64,000 nucleotides of DNA from a virus: the IMG/VR virus record IMGVR_UViG_3300028886_001504; one strand, given 5' to 3'. The notes beneath the pieces are model-generated. The model saw only the letters and a list, made by a program, of their open reading frames with translations. It was not told where the DNA came from and made no database searches. Position 1 is the stretch's first letter. The number at the start of each line of letters is the position of its first letter. Of the stretch, positions 5,923 to 63,551 are shown in pieces. Made by a program: the position numbers and the translations under genes.

Positions 5923-5948
5923 CTTTTTGGTTTTTCAAACTATTTATA
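5923..5948 (+). promoter_or_regulatory. promoter-like 26-mer CTTTTTGGTTTTTCAAACTATTTATA
   Basis: Identical 26-mer at 12506-12531 upstream of tnpB; core AAACTATTTATA recurs upstream of every + strand gene. Confidence 0.5.
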
Positions 5949-5983: not shown

Positions 5984-7192
5984 ATGAATGACGTAACATG
6001 TAAAAAACTGTTTAACACCGAAGATGGTAAGCAAAAACGAATGGTTAGTATTTTAAAAATTTTTAGAGAAAACAAGAATGTGGAAGAATATGTAAAAAAC
6101 AGATATTCGGACTCCACATCAATTAAAGAAAGTGTTTATCGTATATTAAATAATATTGAAATTAGGCCACAGTGTAGGTGCGGAAAAGTATTAGAGTTTG
6201 ATTATCCTCTAAACACTTTCCATAAATATTGCTGTTCAAAATGCCAAAATTCAGACCCAGAAAAGATTAAAAAAGACAAAAAAACTAAACTGGATAAATA
6301 TGGGTCAGAAAATTACAACAATTTTGAAAAAATGAAAGAAACTTGCTATGAACGCTATGGAACAACATCTTTCACTAAGACGAATGAGTTTATAGAAAAA
6401 ACAAAAAAGACTAATTTTGAAAAGTATGGTGTAGATTGGTGATTACAGACTGATACTTGTAAAGATGAAACGAAAAAAGTAAAAAAAGAAAAGTACGGTG
6501 ACGAGAACTATAATAATCGAAATAAGGCGAAAAATACATCACTAGAAAGATATGGGGTTGAAAACACTATGCAATGGGAGGGTTCAAAGCAAAAAGAAAA
6601 AGAAACTTGCCTAAAAAGATACGGTGTTACTTCTTATGCTAAGACAGATGAGTTTAAGAAAAAACTAAAAGCCACTTATCTTAAAAAATGAGGGGTTGAC
6701 AATTGCACAAAAAGCGAAGAATGAAAAAACAAATGATATTCAAATGAAGAGTGAGTAAAAGAAAAAGTAGATAAAATCTACAACACTATGTTAAAAAACT
6801 GTAGTTTTTCACATTCTAAACCAGAGCAAGTTATCTTCAATTTCTTAAAAAATGAGTATCCTGATACAATTTATCAATACAAAGAAAAAAGATACCCCTT
6901 CAAATGTGATTTTTATATCCCTTCAAAAGATTTATTTATTGAATACAACGGCTATTGGGCACATGGCGGACACTTTTTTAACGAGAATGATGAAAAAGAT
7001 GTAGAAAAACTGAAATCATGAAAAGAGAAAAGTAAAAAATCTAAACAATACGAAAATGCAATAAAGACATGGACAATAAAAGACCCTTTGAAACTTAAAA
7101 CTTTTCAAGAAAACAATCTTAAACACATAATACTGTGATATGACAGTTTTAAAAATTTAGAGCAGATAAAAGAAATGGTGGACGAATTTTAG
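5984..7192 (+). CDS. homing-endonuclease-like protein: Zn finger, four ~35-aa repeats (ETC..RYG), C-terminal DUF559/Vsr-like nuclease; 7 in-frame TGA read as sense
   Basis: One frame from 5984 to TAG at 7190-7192 with TGA at 6440, 6689, 6722, 6734, 6752, 7019, 7136 and no TAA/TAG; C-terminal CDFYIPSKDLFIEYNGYWAH matches the DUF559 pattern. Confidence 0.6.
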
Positions 7193-9938: not shown

Positions 9939-10229
9939 TTAATAGACCCTCCTAAAAGTTTTTCTGTGTTTTGCGCAGTCTACGATATATTCTCTTCGTA
10001 GACGTATGCATTCTGCTATTGCGCCAGATTGGTCGTTGCCAAACGGCTTTGTTTCTTTTGCATAGTCTCCTGAGTTTCCACCAAATGATGCTACATCAAT
10101 AGCGAGGAAAAAACCACCATCGCCTTTCCATACTTGGTACATGCTTTTTGCTTGCTTTCTAAACTCCCTTAAGTAATAGGTGTTAAGGTGGTCATGTGTC
10201 AGTACACGTTTAATTTTCTTTTTTTCCAT
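9939..10229 (-). CDS. hypothetical protein
   Basis: 96 aa ORF. Confidence 0.35.
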   Translation of the reverse strand: MEKKKIKRVLTHDHLNTYYLREFRKQAKSMYQVWKGDGGFFLAIDVASFGGNSGDYAKETKPFGNDQSGAIAECIRLRREYIVDCAKHRKTFRRVY

Positions 10230-11079
10230 TTTCTGTATTAGTTGTCATAAGTTTAAAAAATTCTTCTTTCTCTAACGGAGTAGCATCAGTGGCTACCCAA
10301 GCATTACGTTTCACCATAATCGTAGCACCATCTGGATATTTCTTGTTTGGCTTGATTGTTACTTCGTGCTCCTGTTCCACACGATGTATGATACGGCCAT
10401 ACTTCAAGCCATTTTTATAGCAATTCCAATCAATACCTTTTTCTTCTTTCATTTTAGCAATTTGTTCATCGGTATTAAGGTTAAGTAATTCCTTGTGTGA
10501 AAGGTATGTCTGTGCAGCCTGTTGCTTAGAGTTTTTGATGCAATCCAGCTGGCGGTATTTAAACCATGCAAAAGCATCATTGTCAGAAGGAACATTCCAG
10601 CATTTGCAATCAAATTGTGCTAATTTCTGGTTCTCAATAAGATTCGTTGCCTCATTTATTTTATAAATCGTATCTATGCAATCAATTTTGAAAGTGTCGT
10701 AATCCCTACTTTTTATCTCATAAAGGATTGCAAGCTGGTTAAACTTGGCTGTAGCCAAAGATGCAATGATACTCAAAATTTTGCACATTCTGTTACTAAA
10801 GAACGGTGTGGCTTCGCCCTCATCTTTGAGAAGAAAACTGATTTCATCAGATTGCACAAACGCAATTTTAACTCCCTGTACATTTTCACACACATACTTT
10901 GCTGTTTCATTCATCATATTCACAAAGTCCATATCGAATGGCTTTCCGAAATGGTTTTTAATGAGTTTGCTAAAAGCGCGTCCATCACACATTACCAAAA
11001 CATTGGTGTTTGGTAGAAGTCTGTAATCTGTGAGTCCTCTGTAATACTCACCCTTTTCTTTTAGGTTTTGGAAAATCAT
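10210..11079 (-). CDS. tRNA-His guanylyltransferase-like (Thg1-like) 3'-5' nucleotidyltransferase
   Basis: MCDGRAFSKL...KPFD...AFVQSDEISFLLK matches the Thg1 catalytic core. Confidence 0.7.
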   Translation of the reverse strand: MIFQNLKEKGEYYRGLTDYRLLPNTNVLVMCDGRAFSKLIKNHFGKPFDMDFVNMMNETAKYVCENVQGVKIAFVQSDEISFLLKDEGEATPFFSNRMCKILSIIASLATAKFNQLAILYEIKSRDYDTFKIDCIDTIYKINEATNLIENQKLAQFDCKCWNVPSDNDAFAWFKYRQLDCIKNSKQQAAQTYLSHKELLNLNTDEQIAKMKEEKGIDWNCYKNGLKYGRIIHRVEQEHEVTIKPNKKYPDGATIMVKRNAWVATDATPLEKEEFFKLMTTNTENGKKEN

Positions 11080-11417
11080 AATCTTTCTATAATTTGTTGC
11101 AAATATACAACTATTTTCTTTACTAACAAACTTTTTTTCACTATTTTCATATTATGAAATACGAATCGCCTAAAATAATCAAAGAATACCCCATTAAAAT
11201 AGAAGATTCACTACTTTCTGGGTCTGTTGTCTCAGAAAATAGTGAAGTTACGTCTACAGGACAAGAAGTTGAAACCTATACTATTGATACCTTCGATGCT
11301 GATGGTAATAGTCTCTGGTATTAATCATGTTCATTGTCGGGATTATAGGGGCAAGTTCGTGGGTTATAGTCATAACCCTCTTGTGGCATTGGGCAATGAT
11401 AGTTATGCCAACAATCT

Positions 11418-11981
11418 TCACAGCCAGGATAGTTTTTCGACATAGTTGACACCAAATAATAAAACAAGATAAGTAGATAGATAAGCAGCCATTTCAAGAT
11501 AATAGAAATAAGACTCCTTCACGGTTCTGGTTCCTATTGCTATGACAAATGCCAACGTAAAAACTGGGATAAGTACCGCCCACATTTTAACAATAAAAAA
11601 TAACCATATCAACACACACAAAACAGCACCCCATGCGCCAATCTGGTGTATGATGTTAAGTTTCTTGCTTTCCGTATAGTTTGGGGTGAAACCCACCAAA
11701 AAAAGATGAAGTGGTGCAAAAAAACATAAGAACTGCAACGGACTATCTTTTGCTGATGTCAACATTGGTACTAACAACAATGCGGCGCTAACAATCGTCA
11801 CGAGTGACCACAAATTAATGTTTTTTAACTGTGGATGTTCTTTTGTATAACCATCCCACTTCATTCCATAAGCGGAGTAACAACTTAACACCCCATATTT
11901 TTTAATACAGATGTAGTTGAATACTGCCAGCATTATCAATGACAGAATGGTGCATATGTAAGAAGTAATAACAACAGCCAT
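11418..11981 (-). CDS. multi-pass membrane protein
   Basis: Several hydrophobic helices; ends at TGA followed 5 codons later by TAA. Confidence 0.45.
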   Translation of the reverse strand: MAVVITSYICTILSLIMLAVFNYICIKKYGVLSCYSAYGMKWDGYTKEHPQLKNINLWSLVTIVSAALLLVPMLTSAKDSPLQFLCFFAPLHLFLVGFTPNYTESKKLNIIHQIGAWGAVLCVLIWLFFIVKMWAVLIPVFTLAFVIAIGTRTVKESYFYYLEMAAYLSTYLVLLFGVNYVEKLSWL

Positions 11982-12153
11982 AACTAATCGTAATCCTCCT
12001 CTTCAAGTATTAAACACCTATAGAACTCAGGTTTATATACCTGCTTTTCAAGGAAAGCAAGTTTGTCCCATGGCGTTAGTTCATCAAATAGTTTCTCTAC
12101 GTCTGAGATTTCAACAATTTTAATACCATTAATTTCTTTCATAACTTTATATA

Positions 12154-12384
12154 TTAATCAATAATCGTCAGATAAACGCCATGTTGGTAATACAATGTAT
12201 CCGATAAATCATCCTCATTTTTGCAGATATATTTCTCCAAATACTTATTAAGGTTCGCTCTATGGATTATCATTCTACCATTAGGTATGTCAATGATGTC
12301 ATCATCAGAAACAATCTTATTTCTGAAATCAATCTCTTTTGCAAGCGTCTTAAAATCCTCAAGTGTTAGTTTCCGTGTTTTCAT
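12154..12384 (-). CDS. hypothetical protein
   Basis: 76 aa ORF. Confidence 0.4.
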   Translation of the reverse strand: MKTRKLTLEDFKTLAKEIDFRNKIVSDDDIIDIPNGRMIIHRANLNKYLEKYICKNEDDLSDTLYYQHGVYLTIID

Positions 12385-12505
12385 GATAATACTGCAAGGA
12401 AACCCACTACTTTAGTGGTGGGAGGAATTGCAGTTAATCCTTTTTTCTGTTAAACTCTTTATTTTTCACAACAAAAATACTATATTTTTTTTTGAAAAAC
12501 AAAAA

Positions 12506-12531
12506 CTTTTTGGTTTTTCAAACTATTTATA
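12506..12531 (+). promoter_or_regulatory. promoter-like 26-mer identical to 5923-5948
   Basis: Exact repeat; 18 nt upstream of the tnpB ATG. Confidence 0.5.
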
Positions 12532-12548
12532 GTGAACACAAGTGAAAA

Positions 12549-13757
12549 ATGAATGTAATTACCTATAATGTAGAACTTAACCCAACACCAGAAACTTTCA
12601 ACTACTGGAAGAAAATGCTGGTGTTGTATGCACAGGCATATAATGACTGTGCAAACTACATTGTGGATAAAAAACTTCCTCTTTCCATTAAAACCGTTCA
12701 CAACAAAGTCTACGATAGGCTTCGGAAAGCCTACCAAGAACTCCCTTCACAAGCCGTTATCAGACTTTACAAGGATGTTATTCCTGCGTTCAAGTCTATA
12801 CGCTCGAACAAACAAAAAGACACTGAAACGCCACAGAAGAAAAATCTGTCAATGAGGCTTGACAAACGCCTCTACACAAGAGTGGATAGCGATGGTATTG
12901 TAATCACCTCAGAGGTAGCTAGAAAACGTGTTAAAATACCATTTGTCTTGTATGATAAAGTAACAGAACTTCTAAGCAAATACGAAGTATCTGACCCAAC
13001 GATTTTCATTCGTGATAACAGGTTATACCTGTCAATACCGTTTTCAATCCCAACCATTGTCACCGACAATGACAATGCTGTTGGCATTGACCTTGGCATT
13101 AAACGGTTGTTCGTTACCTCAGAAGGTGTGGCATTTAAAGACAAAGCATATCTTCGTGAGCGAAGGAAGGTGCGGCACAATAAACGCAAACTACAAGAAA
13201 AATCAAATAAAAGTCGCACGGCAAAAAAACACCTTAAGAAAATCAAAAGAAGGGAAGTCAACCTCTCAAAAGATATGTTGCATAGAGCAACTAACGCAGT
13301 TCTCGAATCAACATCAGCATCAGTTCTTGTAGTCGAAGACCTATCGAAGATAAAAACCAAAACCTCCAAAACCAAAGAAGGGTTTAAGAGAACAAAACAC
13401 AATAATTCTTTCTCTCAAGTTCCCGTTAGGGAATTCAGAGACATGTTGGCTTACAAGGCACAGTTACACGGAAAACGTGTTGAAACAGTTTCTCCAACTT
13501 ACACCAGTCAAATGGATTGCCGTACTTCAAATAGAGACGGCAACAGAAAAGGTTGCCGATACTATTGCTCAGACGGAATCGTCTTTGACGCAGATTGGAA
13601 CGCAGCAGCCAATATCGCTATTAGAGCGAACCACCCGTTATCGAATATACTGCCATTGGATGGCACACTTAAATTCCTGAACGGCAGGGCACAGTCAATT
13701 GCCCATACGACGAAGGACACACCCTTTCGTCAAGCCCACGAATTAATTCGTGGGTAG
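12549..13757 (+). CDS. tnpB: TnpB (IS605 OrfB-family RNA-guided nuclease)
   Basis: RuvC-like GIDLGIKRLFV; C-terminal Zn finger CRTSNRDGNRKGCRYYC with DADWNAAANIA. Confidence 0.85.
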   Translation: MNVITYNVELNPTPETFNYWKKMLVLYAQAYNDCANYIVDKKLPLSIKTVHNKVYDRLRKAYQELPSQAVIRLYKDVIPAFKSIRSNKQKDTETPQKKNLSMRLDKRLYTRVDSDGIVITSEVARKRVKIPFVLYDKVTELLSKYEVSDPTIFIRDNRLYLSIPFSIPTIVTDNDNAVGIDLGIKRLFVTSEGVAFKDKAYLRERRKVRHNKRKLQEKSNKSRTAKKHLKKIKRREVNLSKDMLHRATNAVLESTSASVLVVEDLSKIKTKTSKTKEGFKRTKHNNSFSQVPVREFRDMLAYKAQLHGKRVETVSPTYTSQMDCRTSNRDGNRKGCRYYCSDGIVFDADWNAAANIAIRANHPLSNILPLDGTLKFLNGRAQSIAHTTKDTPFRQAHELIRG

Positions 13758-13761
13758 TTGA

Positions 13762-14394
13762 CTATAGTTCGGTTTTAATGTCAACTCTTTTCATTAGTTT
13801 CTTAAACAGATTAATGGTAGTGTCAATATCAAAATCAGCGCTGTGCAGTTCACCTTCATTAATGGATAAGCACCCAAGCAGCATTGCAACAGTGCCAAGT
13901 TTGAAATTATCTGGTTTGATGCCCATAGGAGGAAGCACCAGCATAGCAAGCTGACGCACATCCATAGTTACAACCTTATTGAAGAAATTTGACTTATAAA
14001 ACCCTTGTTTATATCTCTCTGGATTAGGGCTAATCTCGTGATAACGAGCAAAAAAATTGTATAGGAAATCATCATCAAACTTGGCGTTGTTGTATCCAAC
14101 TGTAATGAACTTCTCATACAAGTCACGATTGAACGGGTCAACATACTTTAATAACATTGTACAAAGTTCCTTATAGACCTCCTCCCCAGAAGGATATGCC
14201 ATAATTTGTTCCTCCGTTACGTGACTGACTTCAAGAGCCTTCTCGTCAATCAAAGCACCGTCAAACGGCTTAATATGATAGTTGAAGGTTTCTTTTAATT
14301 TACCATCAACGAAAATTTTTCCACTAAACTGATGAATGGCGTTCTTATTAACATCCGTTCCAGTTGTTTCTAAATCGTAAAAAAATAGTTTCAT
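13762..14394 (-). CDS. DnaQ-like 3'-5' exonuclease (DEDD)
   Basis: Exo I FYDLETTG, Exo II FDDDFL, Exo III HSADFD. Confidence 0.75.
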   Translation of the reverse strand: MKLFFYDLETTGTDVNKNAIHQFSGKIFVDGKLKETFNYHIKPFDGALIDEKALEVSHVTEEQIMAYPSGEEVYKELCTMLLKYVDPFNRDLYEKFITVGYNNAKFDDDFLYNFFARYHEISPNPERYKQGFYKSNFFNKVVTMDVRQLAMLVLPPMGIKPDNFKLGTVAMLLGCLSINEGELHSADFDIDTTINLFKKLMKRVDIKTEL

Positions 14395-14762
14395 GCTTTA
14401 AAGTGTTCTTTAAATTTATCTTGTGACCAATATTTTATGTCTTCAATGCGTTTTTCAATGTCTGCCATCAAATGCTCTTTATTTTTGAAAACGCCCTTGC
14501 TTCTTAACCAAAAATTATAAACTGGTGTGGTGTCAAGAGTGTCTGCTAATACTTCCCAACCTATGTCAGAGACGCAATAACGTCTGTCAAATGCTCTTGC
14601 CAATATTGCAAGACTTACAAAGTCCTTACATCTAAAGAAAATGTGATAAGGCTCCTTATAATGCCCACAGCAACTCTCAAATGTTTCAACCCCTGGTAGC
14701 TCATTCAACGCATCACAAAACGCAATGCACTCCTCATCCATGTATTCATCGTATTTATTCAT
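14391..14762 (-). CDS. hypothetical protein
   Basis: 123 aa; TGA stop overlaps the downstream ATG (ATGA). Confidence 0.4.
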   Translation of the reverse strand: MNKYDEYMDEECIAFCDALNELPGVETFESCCGHYKEPYHIFFRCKDFVSLAILARAFDRRYCVSDIGWEVLADTLDTTPVYNFWLRSKGVFKNKEHLMADIEKRIEDIKYWSQDKFKEHFKA

Positions 14763-15249
14763 TTTCGCTTAAAATTGTTCTTGTTATAACGTTTGCTATG
14801 CTTGTTGTCCATTCATCTCTTAAAGACAGAGAATAATCGTCCCAGTAACTAATAAAAAATTCCACGTATTTTTTTGGCGATTTTAATTCACATTTATCTA
14901 ACGGCAATTTTGTAAAAACTCTCTTAAGAACACCAAACAATGGAACAATCATATTTTCCCTTGTTATTTTTTTTGCCATGGGTGTTTCATCTGGTAATTT
15001 CCGAAGGAAAACGTAAAGCTTATTATATGCTTTACACATAGCAATCCTCTTCTCATGGCTCATATCAACATCAATATAATATCCCACTAACCAGTCTATC
15101 AAACCATCAGGTGTTGTGTGCCAAGAAACTTCCTTTTCCATACTATTATCCATAAATTTTCTTCCTTGCCTCAATAAGAAGATTATTAATTGCCTCATAA
15201 TCAGAGTGCTCTGGAAGCGTTGAGTTTTCAATTGCAATCTCCATTTCAT
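14755..15249 (-). CDS. hypothetical protein
   Basis: 164 aa ORF. Confidence 0.4.
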   Translation of the reverse strand: MKWRLQLKTQRFQSTLIMRQLIIFLLRQGRKFMDNSMEKEVSWHTTPDGLIDWLVGYYIDVDMSHEKRIAMCKAYNKLYVFLRKLPDETPMAKKITRENMIVPLFGVLKRVFTKLPLDKCELKSPKKYVEFFISYWDDYSLSLRDEWTTSIANVITRTILSENE

Positions 15250-16348
15250 GCTTTTCCTTTTCCAATTGCTCCATTACCTCATCATATTCAAATTTATGAT
15301 TACGGATGTCAAGGAGATATTGACGGTCTTCGTCCCTAACAACATTAAAACCTTTTCCTTGTGCAAGTTCTTTTGCCATTCTAACAAGACGCATGCAATG
15401 CATAACATTCTTAGAGTCATAGTTCTTGTTCAAGTTAGACTCATATCTTACAGGGTTGCGTTTTTCCTCCCACTCTTTGTATTCTTTATAATCTCTACAA
15501 TGGCAAGTATACGCATCCTTGTTGTATGTCATAAAACAAATAGGCATCTCCCCCTTTGGAATGGAACTTAAACGAACATCATTCGACTTCTCCATTTCAT
15601 CGGGATGCACAATACCGCCGTACCCAAAGAACTCTTTGTTTTTAATTCTTTCATTTGCGTCATCTCTAATTTCATCAACATCATCTGGGTCAAATATATT
15701 GGCAAGCATGAGAAATCTATCAACAGAAGGAACGTTCTCAAACTTGAAGTATGCTGCCCAATCATAATAAACGCCAAACACATCACGCATGTTAGGAATG
15801 TTTACAAGACCACAGTATTTTTGGTCAAGCCCTCTTTCCTTAAGAAACTCTTTGATGGGTTGAGAACCTTGGTTCTTAAAGGTATAACAGAAATCAAGTA
15901 TATCTTTTCTTTCCGTAATTGGATTGACGATTTTCTTGTTAAGACCACGTGCCTTTCCAATTTGGCTTACCGCATAACCGTAGAATGTTTTGAAACATTC
16001 CTTGGAAACAAACATATCTTTATTGTCAATAATGTGCTGTATAGCGGGATGCACTTCACCAATAATACAGTCTTTGGGGGCAAACAAACTTTCCAGCGCC
16101 GTTGGGTTCGCTTTTAAAAGAAGTTCAATCCATCTTCCAAACTCATAAAACACCGTATCGTTTTTCTCATCTGCAATTTGTTCCTGATAACTTGACCTAA
16201 GTCCGAAAAGCATTTCTTTTGGACAAATAAACACTCCACCCACGTCTATATCACTTGTTTCAACGTTCAAATGGTACATGTGAGAGCCACGCATATATTC
16301 ATATGCAATCCATCCGTTTTTTCGTAGTTCTTCAATTGTCATATTCAT
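15146..16348 (-). CDS. Pol-beta superfamily nucleotidyltransferase
   Basis: GS-x10-DxD motif (GSHMYHLNVETSDID). Confidence 0.5.
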   Translation of the reverse strand: MNMTIEELRKNGWIAYEYMRGSHMYHLNVETSDIDVGGVFICPKEMLFGLRSSYQEQIADEKNDTVFYEFGRWIELLLKANPTALESLFAPKDCIIGEVHPAIQHIIDNKDMFVSKECFKTFYGYAVSQIGKARGLNKKIVNPITERKDILDFCYTFKNQGSQPIKEFLKERGLDQKYCGLVNIPNMRDVFGVYYDWAAYFKFENVPSVDRFLMLANIFDPDDVDEIRDDANERIKNKEFFGYGGIVHPDEMEKSNDVRLSSIPKGEMPICFMTYNKDAYTCHCRDYKEYKEWEEKRNPVRYESNLNKNYDSKNVMHCMRLVRMAKELAQGKGFNVVRDEDRQYLLDIRNHKFEYDEVMEQLEKEKHEMEIAIENSTLPEHSDYEAINNLLIEARKKIYG

Positions 16349-29863: not shown

Positions 29864-30358
29864 ATGTTTATTACCGAAAACGACATTAAAAGAATGGTTA
29901 GAGAATGTGCCAAGAAAGTTCTTAACGAATTTTACGGCACTTTTGATGATACAAGAGATGCACCATGGAACCGTACTGATGATTCAAGGACCAGTAAAGA
30001 ATCAACCGAATGGAACGAATTTTATTGTGATTTAACTGATTTAATTAATCAGAATCCACAATACGCAGAAATGCTCCAACCTTTACAAGAAACCCCAGGC
30101 GATTGGACTTCTTGTAATGTGGGTAAAGTCACATTATGGTATGATGTAACTGATTCTGATTTTGAACAAGACGAAGATGGATATGTTTTTGCAAACAATA
30201 GCGAAATAGACACAGATAGCGTAGAAATAGAACTATCGAAAGACAATCAATATCGCTCAACATTTCCTCCAGAACTAATTCAACTGCTCGAAAACGAAGT
30301 ACAAACCGAATTTTCTGAAAACAGAGATTGATTAATAAGTCTATTAAACGATAATTAA
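29864..30358 (+). CDS. small acidic protein, paralog A (N-terminus ITENDI..V.E..KK); 1 in-frame TGA
   Basis: Track ORF ends at TGA 30329-30331; reading through gives 9 more codons to a TAA that sits directly before a terminator hairpin. Confidence 0.45.
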
Positions 30359-32851: not shown

Positions 32852-33439
32852 ATGAGTAAACAAGTTAATATAACCGAAAATGACATCATAAAATTAGTTA
32901 CAGAATCTGTCAAAAAACTCATCAAAGAAGACATATATAATGCCTGGAAGCCTATGGAATGTGATGATGAAAATTATTCAGAAATTACAGAAACTAAGCA
33001 ATTAAGAAATATCATCAGAAGGATGGTTAAAGAGGCTTTTGACATGAGTTACGGCGCACCTACTGGAATCGAACAACCAAAGCCAGCAGGTGGTGTTAAT
33101 ACTAATACCAATGAAAAACTTGACAGCGCACATGACATAAGAAAAAAAATCAGACAGTGGGCAAAAGCACATGAAAAAGGGCTTGGAAAAGAAAAGAGTG
33201 GTGGCAGAATGAATAAATCAAAACGTTCACTCGTTATTACATGACTCAAAAGGAATGATGTAAACTGCGCTGAAATTATGAGAAAACTTTGGCATCCAGC
33301 AAAAGAGGATGAGGATAGTGCAAGAAGTTATTTCTACAAATGTAGGGATGGTAAACTAAACGATTCTGGTGTACCATACAGATTCACGGATGAGGAAATC
33401 AATGCGCTATATAGAATTAAATCAGAAGCATCAGCATAA
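32852..33439 (+). CDS. small protein, paralog B (shares N-terminus with 29864 gene); 1 in-frame TGA
   Basis: Track ORF ends at TGA 33242-33244; same frame continues 64 codons to TAA 33437-33439, which abuts a terminator. Confidence 0.5.
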
Positions 33440-43078: not shown

Positions 43079-43168
43079 TTTAACAATATCCTTACTGTTT
43101 TTTTAACCATCCGCTTTATGTCGGATTCTGTTTTTTGATATTAACAACTTTTAAGCATCTACAACTGT

Positions 43169-44047
43169 TCAGCCAGATGGAATACCGTCTGCACCTGTTG
43201 TCCAACCTGACATATTTGAACTTTTAACAAAAGTTCCTGTGTTTCCTACACCTTCTACCCATTCAGTTGTACTGGATGGAAAGTATCTGGTTGCGAGGCA
43301 TTTGATGTAATTTAAACTAGCGCAATCACAAAACATTTGATAATAACAAGAACTCAATATGGTTGTTGCGGGTAATTCAGGTGCTTTTGTTAATGATGTA
43401 CAACTTCTAAACATATATTGATAGCAAGCTTGTTCTAAAGTAGTTGCGGGTAATTCAGGTGCATTAACGAGGCTAGTGCAATTATAAAACATCCCATAAT
43501 AACAGCAATAAGTTAAAGTAGTGGCTGGCATAATTAATTTACTAGCATCTGTTAACCCAGTACAATAAATAAATAACCCATTAAAATTATACATATCTTG
43601 TAGTGTTGTAGCGGTAGCAAAACCAGCGCTACTAATCATACTCATTATGTTACCTTTTACTTTAAATTGACATGTTGTACCGTAAAAACTGTTAGACTGA
43701 CTTTCTCTATTGTCGCCATATGTTGTATTATCCCCCCTAAACTGAACAGTATCACCCGAAACAACGCTTATAGATACGCCTTCTGTATTAGCTGTTATAC
43801 TTGTCCATTCTCCGTTATTCTTCTTGTATTCAATTGTTTTTGGTGTACAATTTTGTGCTATTCATATAATATTACCATCGCCAGTTACTTCAAATGTAAG
43901 TGGTGTGCACAGAAGTTTTTCATAACCTGATTTGTTATAATCAACCCCTTTCCCTTCGGTATAAGAGACTCAAGGTTCTAAATAACTATTATCTCTTGCC
44001 TCCGTATAAGCAGATTGTGATTCAAAGTAATGCGTGTATTTTCCCAT
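43169..44047 (-). CDS. BspA-type leucine-rich-repeat protein; 2 in-frame TGA
   Basis: Track ORF 43169..43645 continues upstream in frame to ATG 44045-44047 across TGA at 43862-43864 and 43970-43972; repeats ..ATTL..CY.YMF..CTSL..APELP. Confidence 0.5.
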
Positions 44048-55746: not shown

Positions 55747-56442
55747 CTACGGTTTATCTTTGGTTTCACCAGTGTTTCTATATACATTAAATTGCGGAAA
55801 CTGCATAAAGTCGTTTTCTTCGTCTTCTATTTTATCATCGGTTTGTTTTTCACCTAAAACAAGATGTTTATACGTCCTTTCGAGTCACTTCTTGAAATCA
55901 TCAACTGACATTTCATGTTTAGCATAGTTACATTTAGCACAACAAGGCACTACGTTGTCTAATGTGTAGCCTTTACTAGAATCCACTCTATCTATACCAT
56001 TGTGTGCTCATGGTTTTTGTGTTTTTTGCATATATTGTAATTCATACTCTCTAACTTCTGGTGATGCACCACAATAATAACAATCTTGTTCCATTATCTC
56101 TATAAACTCTTCAAATGTTAAATCAAAGTCTAGTCCTCTTTTTGACGCACCTGCTCTATAATCCTTTAATAGTCTATTTTTCAATCCAGAATGTACAATA
56201 CCCTGACTTTTCCTCAAAGCTGTTTCTGTTGATGTTTTCTTGTTTGTACACGAATGACATCCGAAACGGTTGACTAATGTTTTTTCTTTCGCATGAAATT
56301 CATTACCACAATCACATCTACATTCCCACAGTCAAACGTTTTTACCTTTTACTGTTGATTTTCTACAATAATTCTTAATGAGGATAAATCTATCATTAAT
56401 CCTATCCCCTTCCTTGTAATTTGTTTTGTGTTTTGGTCCCAT
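55747..56442 (-). CDS. HNH homing endonuclease; 3 in-frame TGA
   Basis: ATG 56440-56442 to TAG 55747-55749 in one frame with three TGA; Zn finger WECRCDCG; HNH core HNGIDRVDSSKGY...NVVPCCAKCNYAKH; track fragment 56008..56217 is in the same frame. Confidence 0.6.
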
Positions 56443-61289: not shown

Positions 61290-61991
61290 TTACTTCTCCA
61301 GTTTATTGGGACTGGCGTTTCCTTTTGAGTTTGTTTTCCTTTTCGTTCTTGTCGATTTTCCAGTATTCAATGCTGAATAATTTACTGTCATAGCATGGTG
61401 ATTCGGGCATAAAACTTGAAGATTTTCTTCTTTACTATTGTTTGCATCACCATCAATGTGGTGTATTTCAACTATTGGTCTTCCACTCTTAGGATTTACT
61501 CAGTTACATCCACAAATTTCACAAGAACAATTTGTTTTTTCTAACATGTACCTTCTAACAAATTGTGATAGTTGTCCTACCCCTCTATTTCCACTACACT
61601 CTCCACTTTTTCATCTTAGAATATACTGTTTATATTCATACTCTCTTTGACAATGTGAACCACAAAATTTTGTGCTTTTTCTCAAATCCGTTATCTCTCC
61701 TCCACAATTCAAACACACTCTTTCATGTTTTTGTTTCCTCACCCTCTTCTTGTTATTATAAGATGCAGAACAGGAATGTGAGCAAAATAATTTCTGGTCC
61801 TTTTCAAGTTTTTTACCACAAACAATGCAATACTTAGTATTATTTAGTTTAATTGTTTCCAGTCAATCTTTTCAATCAACACCGTTTTCTTTTAAATAAA
61901 GTTTTACTTTTTCTCTGTTAGTGTAATTTGCTTTTCCATAAAGTTTTCTAGATACGTCATTTAACGACTTGCAGTCTTTCAATATTTCCAT
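61290..61991 (-). CDS. HNH homing endonuclease; 4 in-frame TGA
   Basis: ATG 61989-61991 to TAA 61290-61292 in one frame with four TGA and no TGG; Zn fingers CIVCGKKL...CSHSC; HNH core VEIHHIDGD...LQVLCPNHH. Confidence 0.6.
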
Positions 61992-63520: not shown

Positions 63521-63551
63521 AATAGTATTTGTTTAAACAATAAATAGTTGA

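What the first reader, a model, noticed from the sequence alone, without database searches (positions are those of the whole stretch)
12385..13790. IS605-family tnpB element inside the phage genome, sharing an identical 26-nt promoter module and MN start with the recoded homing-endonuclease gene
TnpB has intact RuvC and Zn-finger motifs. It is preceded by a 41-nt compound hairpin plus T-run (12392-12447) that could be the IS left-end structure or a + strand terminator insulating it. The 26-mer CTTTTTGGTTTTTCAAACTATTTATA occurs only here (12506-12531) and in front of the HEase-like gene (5923-5948), and both ORFs begin AAAAATGAATG. The tnpB stop is 4 nt from the convergent DnaQ-like gene stop, so any right-end/omega-RNA sequence must overlap that gene, or the element is domesticated.
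Basis: partly seen in the sequence, partly recalled or inferred. Interest (0 to 1): 0.65.

Follow-up and report, generated by a model that had tools for sequence, protein, structure and literature searches.

The report
Mobile TnpB element in jumbo phage
A 1.4-kb selfish DNA element encoding an RNA-guided nuclease (TnpB) sits exactly between two genes of a giant bacteriophage, and a related phage still has the uninterrupted site, so it is a real and recently mobile insertion, but of an already known kind.

Summary
Window 12385-13762 (1378 bp) is a complete, TnpB-only IS200/IS605-type element.

- **Boundaries.** A metagenome contig (L022) carries the empty site ...GTTTTCAT|TATAGTTCGG.... This fixes both ends to the base and shows there is no target duplication.
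- **Insertion site.** The element split a TAATG stop/start overlap between the DnaQ-like gene and a 76-aa gene. Its last base rebuilds the DnaQ stop codon.
- **Left end.** The upstream hairpin is the left-end structure. It is conserved with compensatory changes in relatives that sit in unrelated phage contexts.
- **Guide RNA.** The last ~130 nt of tnpB plus the right end form a five-helix omega-RNA scaffold: 92.8% of cells paired, and 22 of 33 pairs show compensatory change. The guide is the adjacent 3' end of the DnaQ-like gene. The empty allele carries TTCAT plus a 20/20 match to it.
- **Promoter.** The 26-mer contains AACTATTTATA, a motif that recurs upstream of genes in this phage. The IS family carries it in many phages.
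- **Missing or degenerate parts.** No TnpA was found. The zinc finger is degenerate, not intact.

Most likely this is an RNA-guided homing element spreading among rumen/gut jumbo phages. It is a new member of a known kind, of moderate interest.

The parts
12380..12384 (+). Target/TAM pentanucleotide TTCAT immediately 5' of the left end. Its CAT is the ATG of the 76-aa gene on the minus strand.
   Evidence: The empty site in L022 shows TTTTCAT joined directly to TATAGTTCGG. TCAT was required by my end-finding rule, so its invariance is circular. Position -5 was not required, and it is T in 19 of 22 loci.
12385..13762 (+). The whole IS200/IS605-type, TnpB-only element (1378 bp), with no target duplication.
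   Evidence: Comparison with the empty site fixes both ends. In all relatives, homology stops at ...GTGGGT(A/G)GTTGAC. L004 and L005 are 93.8% identical over the element only.
12391..12434 (+). Left-end compound hairpin: outer stem, conserved GGAAAC/AGGAAT internal loop, and an inner stem-loop that resembles the right-end hairpin.
   Evidence: DNA fold z = -3.3. In 26 loci all 8 consensus pairs show compensatory changes. The omega-RNA model's right-end hairpin positions weakly match 12403-12422.
12442..12447 (+). T-run after the left-end hairpin. CCTTTT..GTTAAAC is conserved in the subfamily. It is a possible + strand terminator that insulates the element.
   Evidence: The terminator role is inferred by analogy with IS200, from my own knowledge.
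12506..12531 (+). 26-mer promoter module. The core AACTATTTATA is at 12521-12531, 17 nt before the tnpB ATG.
   Evidence: The 26-mer is exact at 5923 and 12506 only. The core occurs exactly 6 times in the window, each 15-35 nt upstream of a same-strand ATG. (A)CTATTTATA lies upstream of tnpB in relatives from other phages.
12549..13757 (+). tnpB coding sequence, 402 aa. The RuvC D-E-D residues are intact and the zinc finger is degenerate.
   Evidence: It also matches PHROG 506.
13635..13755 (+). Omega-RNA scaffold of five helices, overlapping the 3' end of tnpB. The last helix, 13734-13755, is also the right-end hairpin.
   Evidence: 92.8% of cells are paired, against 31-46% when partners are slid, and 22 of 33 pairs show compensatory change. 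RNAalifold finds compensatory change in 21 of 29 pairs. The covariance model hits 13618-13762 at 146.7 bits, and loci not used to build it at 53-101 bits. The single-sequence fold has z = -5.1.
13756..13762 (+). Right-end terminus AGTTGAC. The final C supplies the G of the rebuilt TAG stop of the DnaQ-like gene.
13763..13782 (+). Predicted guide segment of the omega RNA. This is flanking DNA, antisense to the last codons of the DnaQ-like gene.
   Evidence: It is identical 20/20 in the empty allele L022, where TTCAT precedes it. It is unique in the window. A guide length of 16-20 nt is inferred from characterised TnpBs.
13762..14394 (-). DnaQ-like 3'-5' exonuclease gene (RNase_T family). It converges on tnpB and forms the right flank of the insertion.
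12154..12384 (-). 76-aa gene forming the left flank. In the empty allele its ATG overlaps the DnaQ stop (TAATG).
5923..5948 (+). Second copy of the 26-mer, 35 nt upstream of the DUF7487 endonuclease-like gene 5984-7192. That gene has 7 in-frame TGA codons.

Best explanation
Window 12385-13762 is a non-autonomous (TnpB-only) IS200/IS605-family insertion sequence. It belongs to a lineage that lives mainly in jumbo phages of rumen and gut Bacteroidales.

**Insertion (shown).** The element inserted 3' of a TTCAT motif, with no target duplication. The site is the TAATG stop/start overlap between the DnaQ-like gene and a 76-aa gene. The DnaQ reading frame is unchanged because the last base of the element rebuilds its stop codon.

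**Proposed mechanism (inferred).**
1. tnpB is transcribed from an internal phage-type promoter whose core is AACTATTTATA.
2. The 3' end of that transcript folds into a five-helix omega-RNA scaffold (13635-13755).
3. The transcript runs across the right end into the flank, which gives a guide of about 16-20 nt (13763-13782).
4. The TnpB-omega RNA complex cuts any co-resident phage genome that still has the empty site, that is TTCAT followed by the guide match.
5. The occupied allele is spared, because GTTGAC replaces the TAM there.
6. Repair from an element-bearing genome copies the element in. This is homing, or restoration of the element after excision.
7. Moves to new sites need a Y1 TnpA supplied in trans. 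That enzyme would recognise the similar left-end and right-end hairpins.

**What is shown and what is inferred.** Shown: the boundaries, the empty allele, the conserved ends, the RNA covariation, the intact catalytic residues, and near-identical copies at different sites. Inferred: expression, RNA processing, cleavage, homing, and the source of TnpA.
For: - **Empty allele.** L022 reads ...GTTTTCAT|TATAGTTCGGTTTTAATGTC.... Its right flank is 93.4% identical to the window over 988 nt and its left flank 70% over 237 nt.
- **Many contexts.** Relatives at 40-90% aa identity lie in dozens of unrelated contexts in 50-420 kb viral contigs. They have the same right end (...CAAGCCCAC..GTGGGTAGTTGAC) and the same left-end hairpin.
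- **Recent movement.** L014 and L017 are 99.92% identical over 1248 nt but have different right flanks.
- **Omega RNA.** Covariation is strong, and the covariance model recovers loci that were not used to build it.
- **Left end.** All 8 consensus pairs of the left-end hairpin show compensatory changes.
- **Protein.** D181, E263 and D349 are invariant. The sequence is similar to ISDra2 TnpB structures 8bf8/8exa/8h1j.
- **Promoter.** The motif recurs upstream of genes in the window and upstream of tnpB in relatives.
- **Precedent.** TAM-dependent, omega-RNA-guided homing has been shown for IS200/IS605 elements, and a TTCAT TAM is known for ISGst5 (bioRxiv 10.1101/2023.03.14.532601). Homing between co-infecting phages has been discussed as a possibility (PMC13565253).
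Against: - **No TnpA.** No Y1 TnpA was found in the 64-kb window or in the flanks of about 60 family loci, although the same queries found TnpA next to distant relatives. How the element reaches new sites is therefore unexplained.
- **Degenerate zinc finger.** The TNB zinc finger is degenerate, and activity of such a variant is untested.
- **No expression data.** No Rfam family matches.
- **Circular TAM consensus.** Apart from the window's empty site, the TAM consensus rests on an end-finding rule that required TCA(T/C).
- **Single empty allele.** Only one was found, and only 1259 nt of it are held.
Confidence: 0.8

Rival explanations
1. The element is a stranded relic. It is a real past insertion that can no longer move or home, because there is no TnpA and the zinc finger is degenerate, and it is now inherited only vertically with the phage.
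For: No TnpA was found in the window or in family loci. The zinc finger is non-canonical. Some relatives (L006, L020) have lost the left-end hairpin.
Against: The ORF is intact and D-E-D is invariant across hundreds of relatives. Compensatory changes keep the omega-RNA helices and the left-end hairpin intact, which implies continuing selection. Near-identical copies sit at different sites. An empty allele still exists in a relative that is 93% identical over the right flank.
Confidence: 0.12
2. This is a domesticated TnpB. The gene has been taken over by the phage as a regulator (TldR-like) or as a weapon against hosts or competitors, and it no longer behaves as part of a transposon.
For: It has a phage-type promoter that is also found in front of other phage genes. 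It lacks TnpA. The family is found almost entirely in phage contigs.
Against: The catalytic residues are intact, whereas TldRs are nuclease-dead (the TldR property is from my own knowledge). Both transposon ends are conserved. The guide is simply the flanking DNA of each insertion, not a fixed target. The locus is polymorphic and the element sits at many different loci.
Confidence: 0.05
3. The conserved 3' helices are single-stranded DNA signals for the transposase, or are constrained by the protein code, and are not an omega RNA.
For: The last helix resembles the inner stem of the left-end hairpin, as expected for TnpA recognition hairpins. The region is partly coding.
Against: Four further helices, including a long-range one, covary over about 120 nt. 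That far exceeds a subterminal TnpA hairpin and matches the position and size of known omega RNAs. The structure ends exactly at the transposon boundary.
Confidence: 0.03

Closest known systems
ISDra2 TnpB / omega RNA (IS200/IS605; structures 8exa, 8h1j)
   Same: A RuvC nuclease of about 400 aa. The omega RNA overlaps the 3' end of tnpB and ends at the right end. The guide is flanking DNA. A 5-nt T-rich TAM (TTGAT in ISDra2, TTCAT here) equals the transposon target site. There are subterminal hairpins and no target duplication.
   Different: Similarity is weak (E about 4e-10, confined to the RuvC/TNB half). There is no adjacent tnpA. The zinc finger is degenerate. The element is phage-borne and has a phage-type promoter.
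IS1341-type (tnpB-only) elements and their 3' sense-overlapping RNAs (PMC4615843)
   Same: tnpB is the only gene, and a structured non-coding RNA overlaps its 3' end.
   Different: Those elements were described in archaeal and bacterial chromosomes.
Geobacillus ISGst elements: TnpB/IscB-driven homing (bioRxiv 10.1101/2023.03.14.532601)
   Same: The predicted logic is the same: nuclease plus guide cut the TAM-bearing empty site and recombination restores the element. A TTCAT TAM is reported there for ISGst5.
   Different: ISGst5 with TTCAT encodes IscB, not TnpB. Those elements have TnpA and sit in a bacterial chromosome. Nothing was tested experimentally here.
Free-standing homing endonuclease genes of T4-like phages (SegF, Mob)
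   Same: A selfish nuclease gene sits between conserved phage genes and is present or absent among related phages. It is expected to cut the allele that lacks it during co-infection.
   Different: Target recognition here would be RNA-guided, and the element has discrete transposon ends. The element is not a member of those protein families.

Membership tests
IS200/IS605 insertion sequences | Y1 (HUH) TnpA transposase encoded in the element | tested here: not met
It found nothing in the window or in about 60 family loci. The element is therefore a non-autonomous, tnpB-only form.
IS200/IS605 insertion sequences | Insertion 3' of a specific tetra- or pentanucleotide, with no target-site duplication and no terminal inverted repeats | tested here: met
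   The empty site in L022 joins TTTTCAT directly to TATAGTTCGG. TTCAT or TTCAC lies 5' of the left end in 31 loci, although TCA(T/C) was required by my search rule.
IS200/IS605 insertion sequences | Subterminal hairpins at the left and right ends, similar to each other | tested here: met
   The left-end hairpin shows covariation. The right-end hairpin, helix 5, is 95% paired. The right-end part of the RNA model matches the left-end inner stem. The L005 left-end inner stem has the same sequence as the L006 right-end hairpin.
TnpB-omega RNA (OMEGA) RNA-guided nucleases | TnpB with RuvC D, E, D catalytic residues | tested here: met
   D181, E263 and D349 are invariant in 14 family members. Pfam matches OrfB_IS605 and Cas12f1-like_TNB.
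TnpB-omega RNA (OMEGA) RNA-guided nucleases | Canonical CxxC...CxxC zinc finger in the TNB domain | tested here: not met
   The window protein has C-x11-C-x3-C. Only C336 and C340 are invariant, and the first Cys is C or S in relatives.
TnpB-omega RNA (OMEGA) RNA-guided nucleases | Structured RNA overlapping the 3' end of tnpB and ending at the transposon right end | tested here: met
   There are five helices, 92.8% of cells are paired, and 22 of 33 pairs show compensatory change. The covariance model recovers loci not used to build it at 53-101 bits, but scores no more than 16.7 bits in 410 kb of unrelated IS200/IS605 loci. No Rfam family matches.
TnpB-omega RNA (OMEGA) RNA-guided nucleases | The guide matches the empty site next to the TAM | tested here: met
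   L022 carries TTCAT followed by a 20/20 match to window 13763-13782.
TnpB-omega RNA (OMEGA) RNA-guided nucleases | Expression and processing of the RNA, and RNA-guided DNA cleavage | not testable with these tools
   No transcript or biochemical data are available.
TldR / domesticated nuclease-dead TnpB | Loss of RuvC catalytic residues and of transposon ends, with a fixed locus | tested here: not met
   The catalytic residues are intact, both ends are conserved, and the locus is polymorphic.

The most novel reading that the evidence does not exclude
This is a phage-adapted lineage of RNA-guided homing elements, with four proposed features:

- It has dispensed with a linked transposase.
- It carries the promoter class of its jumbo-phage hosts. 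In this window the same motif precedes genes with in-frame TGA codons.
- Its TAM, TTCAT, is the antisense of ATGAA. The element can therefore settle on start codons and stop/start overlaps of oppositely oriented phage genes without breaking them.
- It persists and spreads mainly by TnpB-driven homing during co-infection. Copies that have lost the left-end hairpin (L006, L020) would survive by homing alone.

On this reading it is the RNA-guided counterpart of the free-standing homing endonucleases of T4-like phages.
Probability: 0.3. Interest if true: 0.6.

Novelty: new member of a known kind. Interest (0 to 1): 0.4.

Why it matters
TnpB genes are often annotated in phages, but usually without defined ends, guide or target. 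Here every part can be read from sequence: both ends, the TAM, the omega-RNA scaffold, the 20-nt guide, and a natural empty-site allele that the guide matches perfectly.

- **A testable natural case.** The idea that transposon-encoded RNA-guided nucleases home between co-infecting phages has so far been discussed only as a possibility. This locus makes it directly testable.
- **A large unnamed family.** The search returned 709 proteins at E <= 1e-10, and none of the 120 best carries an NCBI or UniRef source. The family is a compact TnpB of about 400 aa with an inferred TTCAT or TTCAC TAM.
- **Gentle insertion.** The site shows how such an element can enter a tightly packed operon with little damage. 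It splits a TAATG overlap and rebuilds the stop codon.

Tried and rejected
- **Phage DNA search.** Megablast of 10000-16000 against GenBank phages found no match. A protein search found only TnpBs at about 25% identity.
- **Rfam.** Neither the gathering thresholds nor E <= 10 gave anything relevant.
- **Empty site.** The 25-mer was absent from IMG/VR. A degenerate pattern in the metagenome collection gave 9 hits, of which only L022 is homologous. L023, from the same metagenome as L002, is a chance match.
- **DnaQ-like gene.** It has only one distant relative in IMG/VR (44% identity), so it was not useful for finding empty sites.
- **TnpA.** There were no hits in the window or family loci. A TnpA scan of IMG/VR returned 80 loci, none on contigs known to carry this family. 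Only the best 80 of 427 were kept, so this is inconclusive. The omega-RNA model found nothing in those loci, so no autonomous partner was identified.
- **Sigma-70 scan.** It gave nothing informative for the tnpB promoter.
- **Endonuclease-like gene.** Relatives of the DUF7487 gene in IMG/VR are too distant to trace the origin of the 26-mer.
- **Jug phages.** The paper on 360-402 kb gut jumbo phages does not mention transposases, recoding or promoters. Whether this phage belongs to that group was not tested.
- **Shared homology beyond the 26-mer.** I considered whether the tnpB and endonuclease upstream regions share more than the 26-mer. They do not.
Full report
**Observation**

The ORF at 12549-13757 (+) encodes a 402-aa protein that matches Pfam OrfB_IS605 and Cas12f1-like_TNB and PHROG 506 'transposase'. 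By sequence it resembles the solved ISDra2 TnpB structures, with E about 4e-10.

The RuvC residues D181, E263 and D349 are invariant in an alignment of 14 family members. The zinc finger is not canonical: the window protein has C-x11-C-x3-C, and only two Cys are invariant in the family. 'Intact Zn finger' is therefore the one part of the observation that does not hold.

The 26-mer is exact at 5923 and 12506 and occurs nowhere else, even when 3 mismatches are allowed. The compound hairpin (12391-12434) and T-run (12442-12447) are present. The tnpB stop (13755-13757) and the stop of the convergent RNase_T/DnaQ-like gene (13762-13764) are 4 nt apart.

**Context**

The window is part of a 384-kb metagenome contig. 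Its genes are phage-like: NAD-dependent ligase, NAMPT, RNA ligase and a strong PHROG 22485 match. Genes are dense and 69 of 76 ORFs lie on the minus strand.

The TnpB belongs to a large family. The search returned 709 proteins at E <= 1e-10, and none of the 120 best carries an NCBI or UniRef source. In IMG/VR the family occurs in contigs of 50-420 kb. Among 185,579 species genomes, close relatives occur only in seven contigs of Prevotella/Bacteroidales MAGs from rumen, horse and deer. Deposited phage genomes hold nothing closer than about 25% identity.

**Boundaries**

Alignment of the 3' regions of relatives from unrelated gene contexts shows homology ending sharply after ...CAAGCCCAC(loop)GTGGGT(A/G)GTTGAC. 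In the window this is base 13762.

On the left, relatives share the compound hairpin, preceded by (T)TCAT. From this I predicted that the empty site would read GTTTTCAT|TATAGTTCGG.

A degenerate search of the metagenome collection found it in L022 (JAEEGL012800943.1). L022 is 93.4% identical to window 13763-14750 and 70% identical to 12152-12388. The two segments abut exactly as predicted.

The element is therefore 12385-13762 (1378 bp), with no target duplication. In the empty allele the DnaQ-like stop TAA overlaps the ATG of the 76-aa gene (TAATG). In the window the stop is TAG, made from the flanking TA plus the last base of the element. The exonuclease sequence is unchanged, but the 76-aa gene loses its translational coupling.

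**Mobility**

- L014 and L017 are 99.92% identical over 1248 nt, but their right flanks differ.
- L004 and L005 are 93.8% identical over the element only.
- Flanking genes differ between loci and include NrdD/DnaB, SNF2 helicase, T4-type portal and DNA polymerase B.
- tnpB usually points against its neighbours.
- In 10 of 20 determinable TTCAT loci, the CAT is the ATG of an antisense ORF of at least 76 aa. The background is 23% of TTCAT sites (P about 0.008).
- Antisense ORFs often end within the right end or just beyond it.

The simplest reading is inferred rather than shown. TTCAT is the antisense of ATGAA, so the insertions that do not disrupt genes are those at antisense gene starts.

One caveat applies. 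My end-finding rule required TCA(T/C), so only position -5 (T in 19 of 22 loci) and the window's empty site are independent evidence for the TAM. A sister subfamily uses TTCAC.

**Omega RNA**

In 21 loci, the 145 nt before the right end form five helices: a long-range stem that encloses a small hairpin, followed by three further hairpins.

| Measure | Result |
|---|---|
| Cells paired | 92.8%, against 31-46% when partners are slid |
| Pairs with compensatory change | 22 of 33 |
| Shuffles reaching the observed values | 0 of 500 |
| RNAalifold pairs with compensatory change | 21 of 29 |
| Single-sequence fold of the window | z = -5.1 |

A covariance model built from these loci finds one copy in the window (13618-13762, 146.7 bits). 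It scores 53-101 bits at the 3' end of tnpB in 23 loci that were not used to build it. It scores no more than 16.7 bits in 410 kb of unrelated loci, most of them carrying a TnpA. Rfam has no matching family.

The scaffold ends at the transposon boundary, so the guide is 13763-13782. This segment is antisense to the last DnaQ codons and is unique in the window. It is identical 20/20 in the empty allele, where TTCAT precedes it. In the occupied allele GTTGAC takes the place of the TAM.

This is the arrangement through which IS200/IS605 nucleases were shown to cut empty sites and restore the element (bioRxiv 10.1101/2023.03.14.532601). A recent review raises homing between co-infecting phages as a possibility (PMC13565253).

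**Left end**

Outer and inner stems of the hairpin covary: all 8 of 8 consensus pairs show compensatory changes in 26 loci. The internal loop GGAAAC/AGGAAT and the loop CTT(T/C)AG are conserved.

The inner stem resembles the right-end hairpin. The model's right-end positions weakly match 12403-12422, and the L005 left-end inner stem has the sequence of the L006 right-end hairpin. This is what TnpA recognition hairpins should look like.

The following CCTTTT...GTTAAAC is also conserved. It may terminate incoming + strand transcription, as described for IS200 (my own knowledge).

Two relatives, L006 and L020, lack the hairpin.

**Transposase**

They find nothing in the window or in about 60 family loci. 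A TnpA scan of IMG/VR and an omega-RNA search of those loci did not reveal an autonomous partner.

The element is therefore tnpB-only. The precise TAM-linked ends at many sites imply TnpA-type transposition, but the source of the enzyme is unknown.

**Promoter**

The core AACTATTTATA occurs exactly six times in the window, at 5938+, 12521+, 29834+, 32823+, 44063- and 63853+. With one mismatch allowed there are 11 hits, against 3.65 expected. Each copy lies 15-35 nt upstream of a same-strand ATG, with a T-tract further upstream.

(A)CTATTTATA also lies 12-40 nt upstream of tnpB in relatives from other phages. The promoter is therefore part of the element and belongs to a class used by the phage.

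Outside the 26-mer, the tnpB and endonuclease upstream regions are not homologous. The 26/26 identity is higher than the match to the promoter of the closest IS relative, L010. This suggests exchange or convergence within the genome, and it remains unexplained.

**Verdict**

This is a genuine, complete and recently mobile TnpB-only IS200/IS605 element with a well-supported omega RNA, TAM and guide, and a natural empty allele.

The kind is known, because TnpB is frequently annotated in phages (PMC12607003; PHROG 506). I therefore rate it a new member of a known kind.

What is of moderate interest is the phage-restricted family, the phage-type promoter, the insertion at an overlapping stop/start junction, and the directly testable prediction of homing.

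Noticed in passing
window 5984-7192 (+), 43151-44047 (-), 32852-33439 (+), 29864-30358 (+), 55747-56442 (-), 61290-61991 (-): Several genes read through in-frame TGA codons with no in-frame TAA or TAG. The DUF7487 endonuclease-like gene has 7, the gene at 44047 has 3, and the gene at 32852 gains 65 plausible residues (130 to 195 aa) ending in TAA TAA. Many minus-strand genes nevertheless use TGA as a true stop in ATGA overlaps. Four of the seven genes with the AACTATTTATA motif upstream have in-frame TGA, while tnpB has none. This suggests stage-specific TGA-to-Trp recoding linked to this promoter class. None of the three tRNAs in the window is a suppressor.
   Followed up: partly
window 5938, 12521, 29834, 32823, 63853 (+) and 44063 (-); one-mismatch copy at 63539 (-): AACTATTTATA, with a T-tract about 10-15 nt upstream, recurs 15-35 nt before start codons in an orientation-specific way. 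It is probably a phage promoter class. It does not match the sigma-70 consensus, nor, as far as I could see, the Bacteroidetes -7/-33 consensus.
   Followed up: partly
window 12506-12531 compared with L010:115-150: The tnpB promoter 26-mer is identical to the one upstream of the endonuclease-like gene in the same genome. It differs at several positions from the promoter of the closest IS relative (90% aa identity). This hints at promoter exchange or homogenisation within the genome.
   Followed up: partly
L022:37-273 versus L022:270-1257 (window 12152-12388 and 13763-14750): Identity between the empty allele and the window drops from 93.4% on the right of the insertion point to 70% on the left. 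This may be a recombination boundary exactly at the insertion site, or ordinary mosaicism.
   Followed up: no
L006:594-740 and L020:2890-3000: These relatives have an intact tnpB, promoter and right end but lack the left-end hairpin. In L020 the deletion looks precise and the TTCAT/start-codon junction is kept. Such copies could not be excised by TnpA and could persist only vertically or by homing.
   Followed up: partly
L038:2345-2365 and L038:3693-3705: The nine bases after the TTCAC at the left end (TAAATAACG) are repeated directly after the right end. This is unexpected for a family that makes no target duplication, and the left boundary in this locus may be misplaced.
   Followed up: no
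window 12404-13558, minus strand: There are four terminator-like hairpins on the strand antisense to the element, against 1.2 +/- 1.1 in shuffles. One of them is the left-end inner stem. They might attenuate read-through of the minus-strand operon across the insertion.
   Followed up: no
window 13619-13631 with 13767-13780: In the single-sequence fold, the predicted guide pairs with sequence just upstream of the scaffold. Guides differ between copies, so this is probably chance.
   Followed up: no
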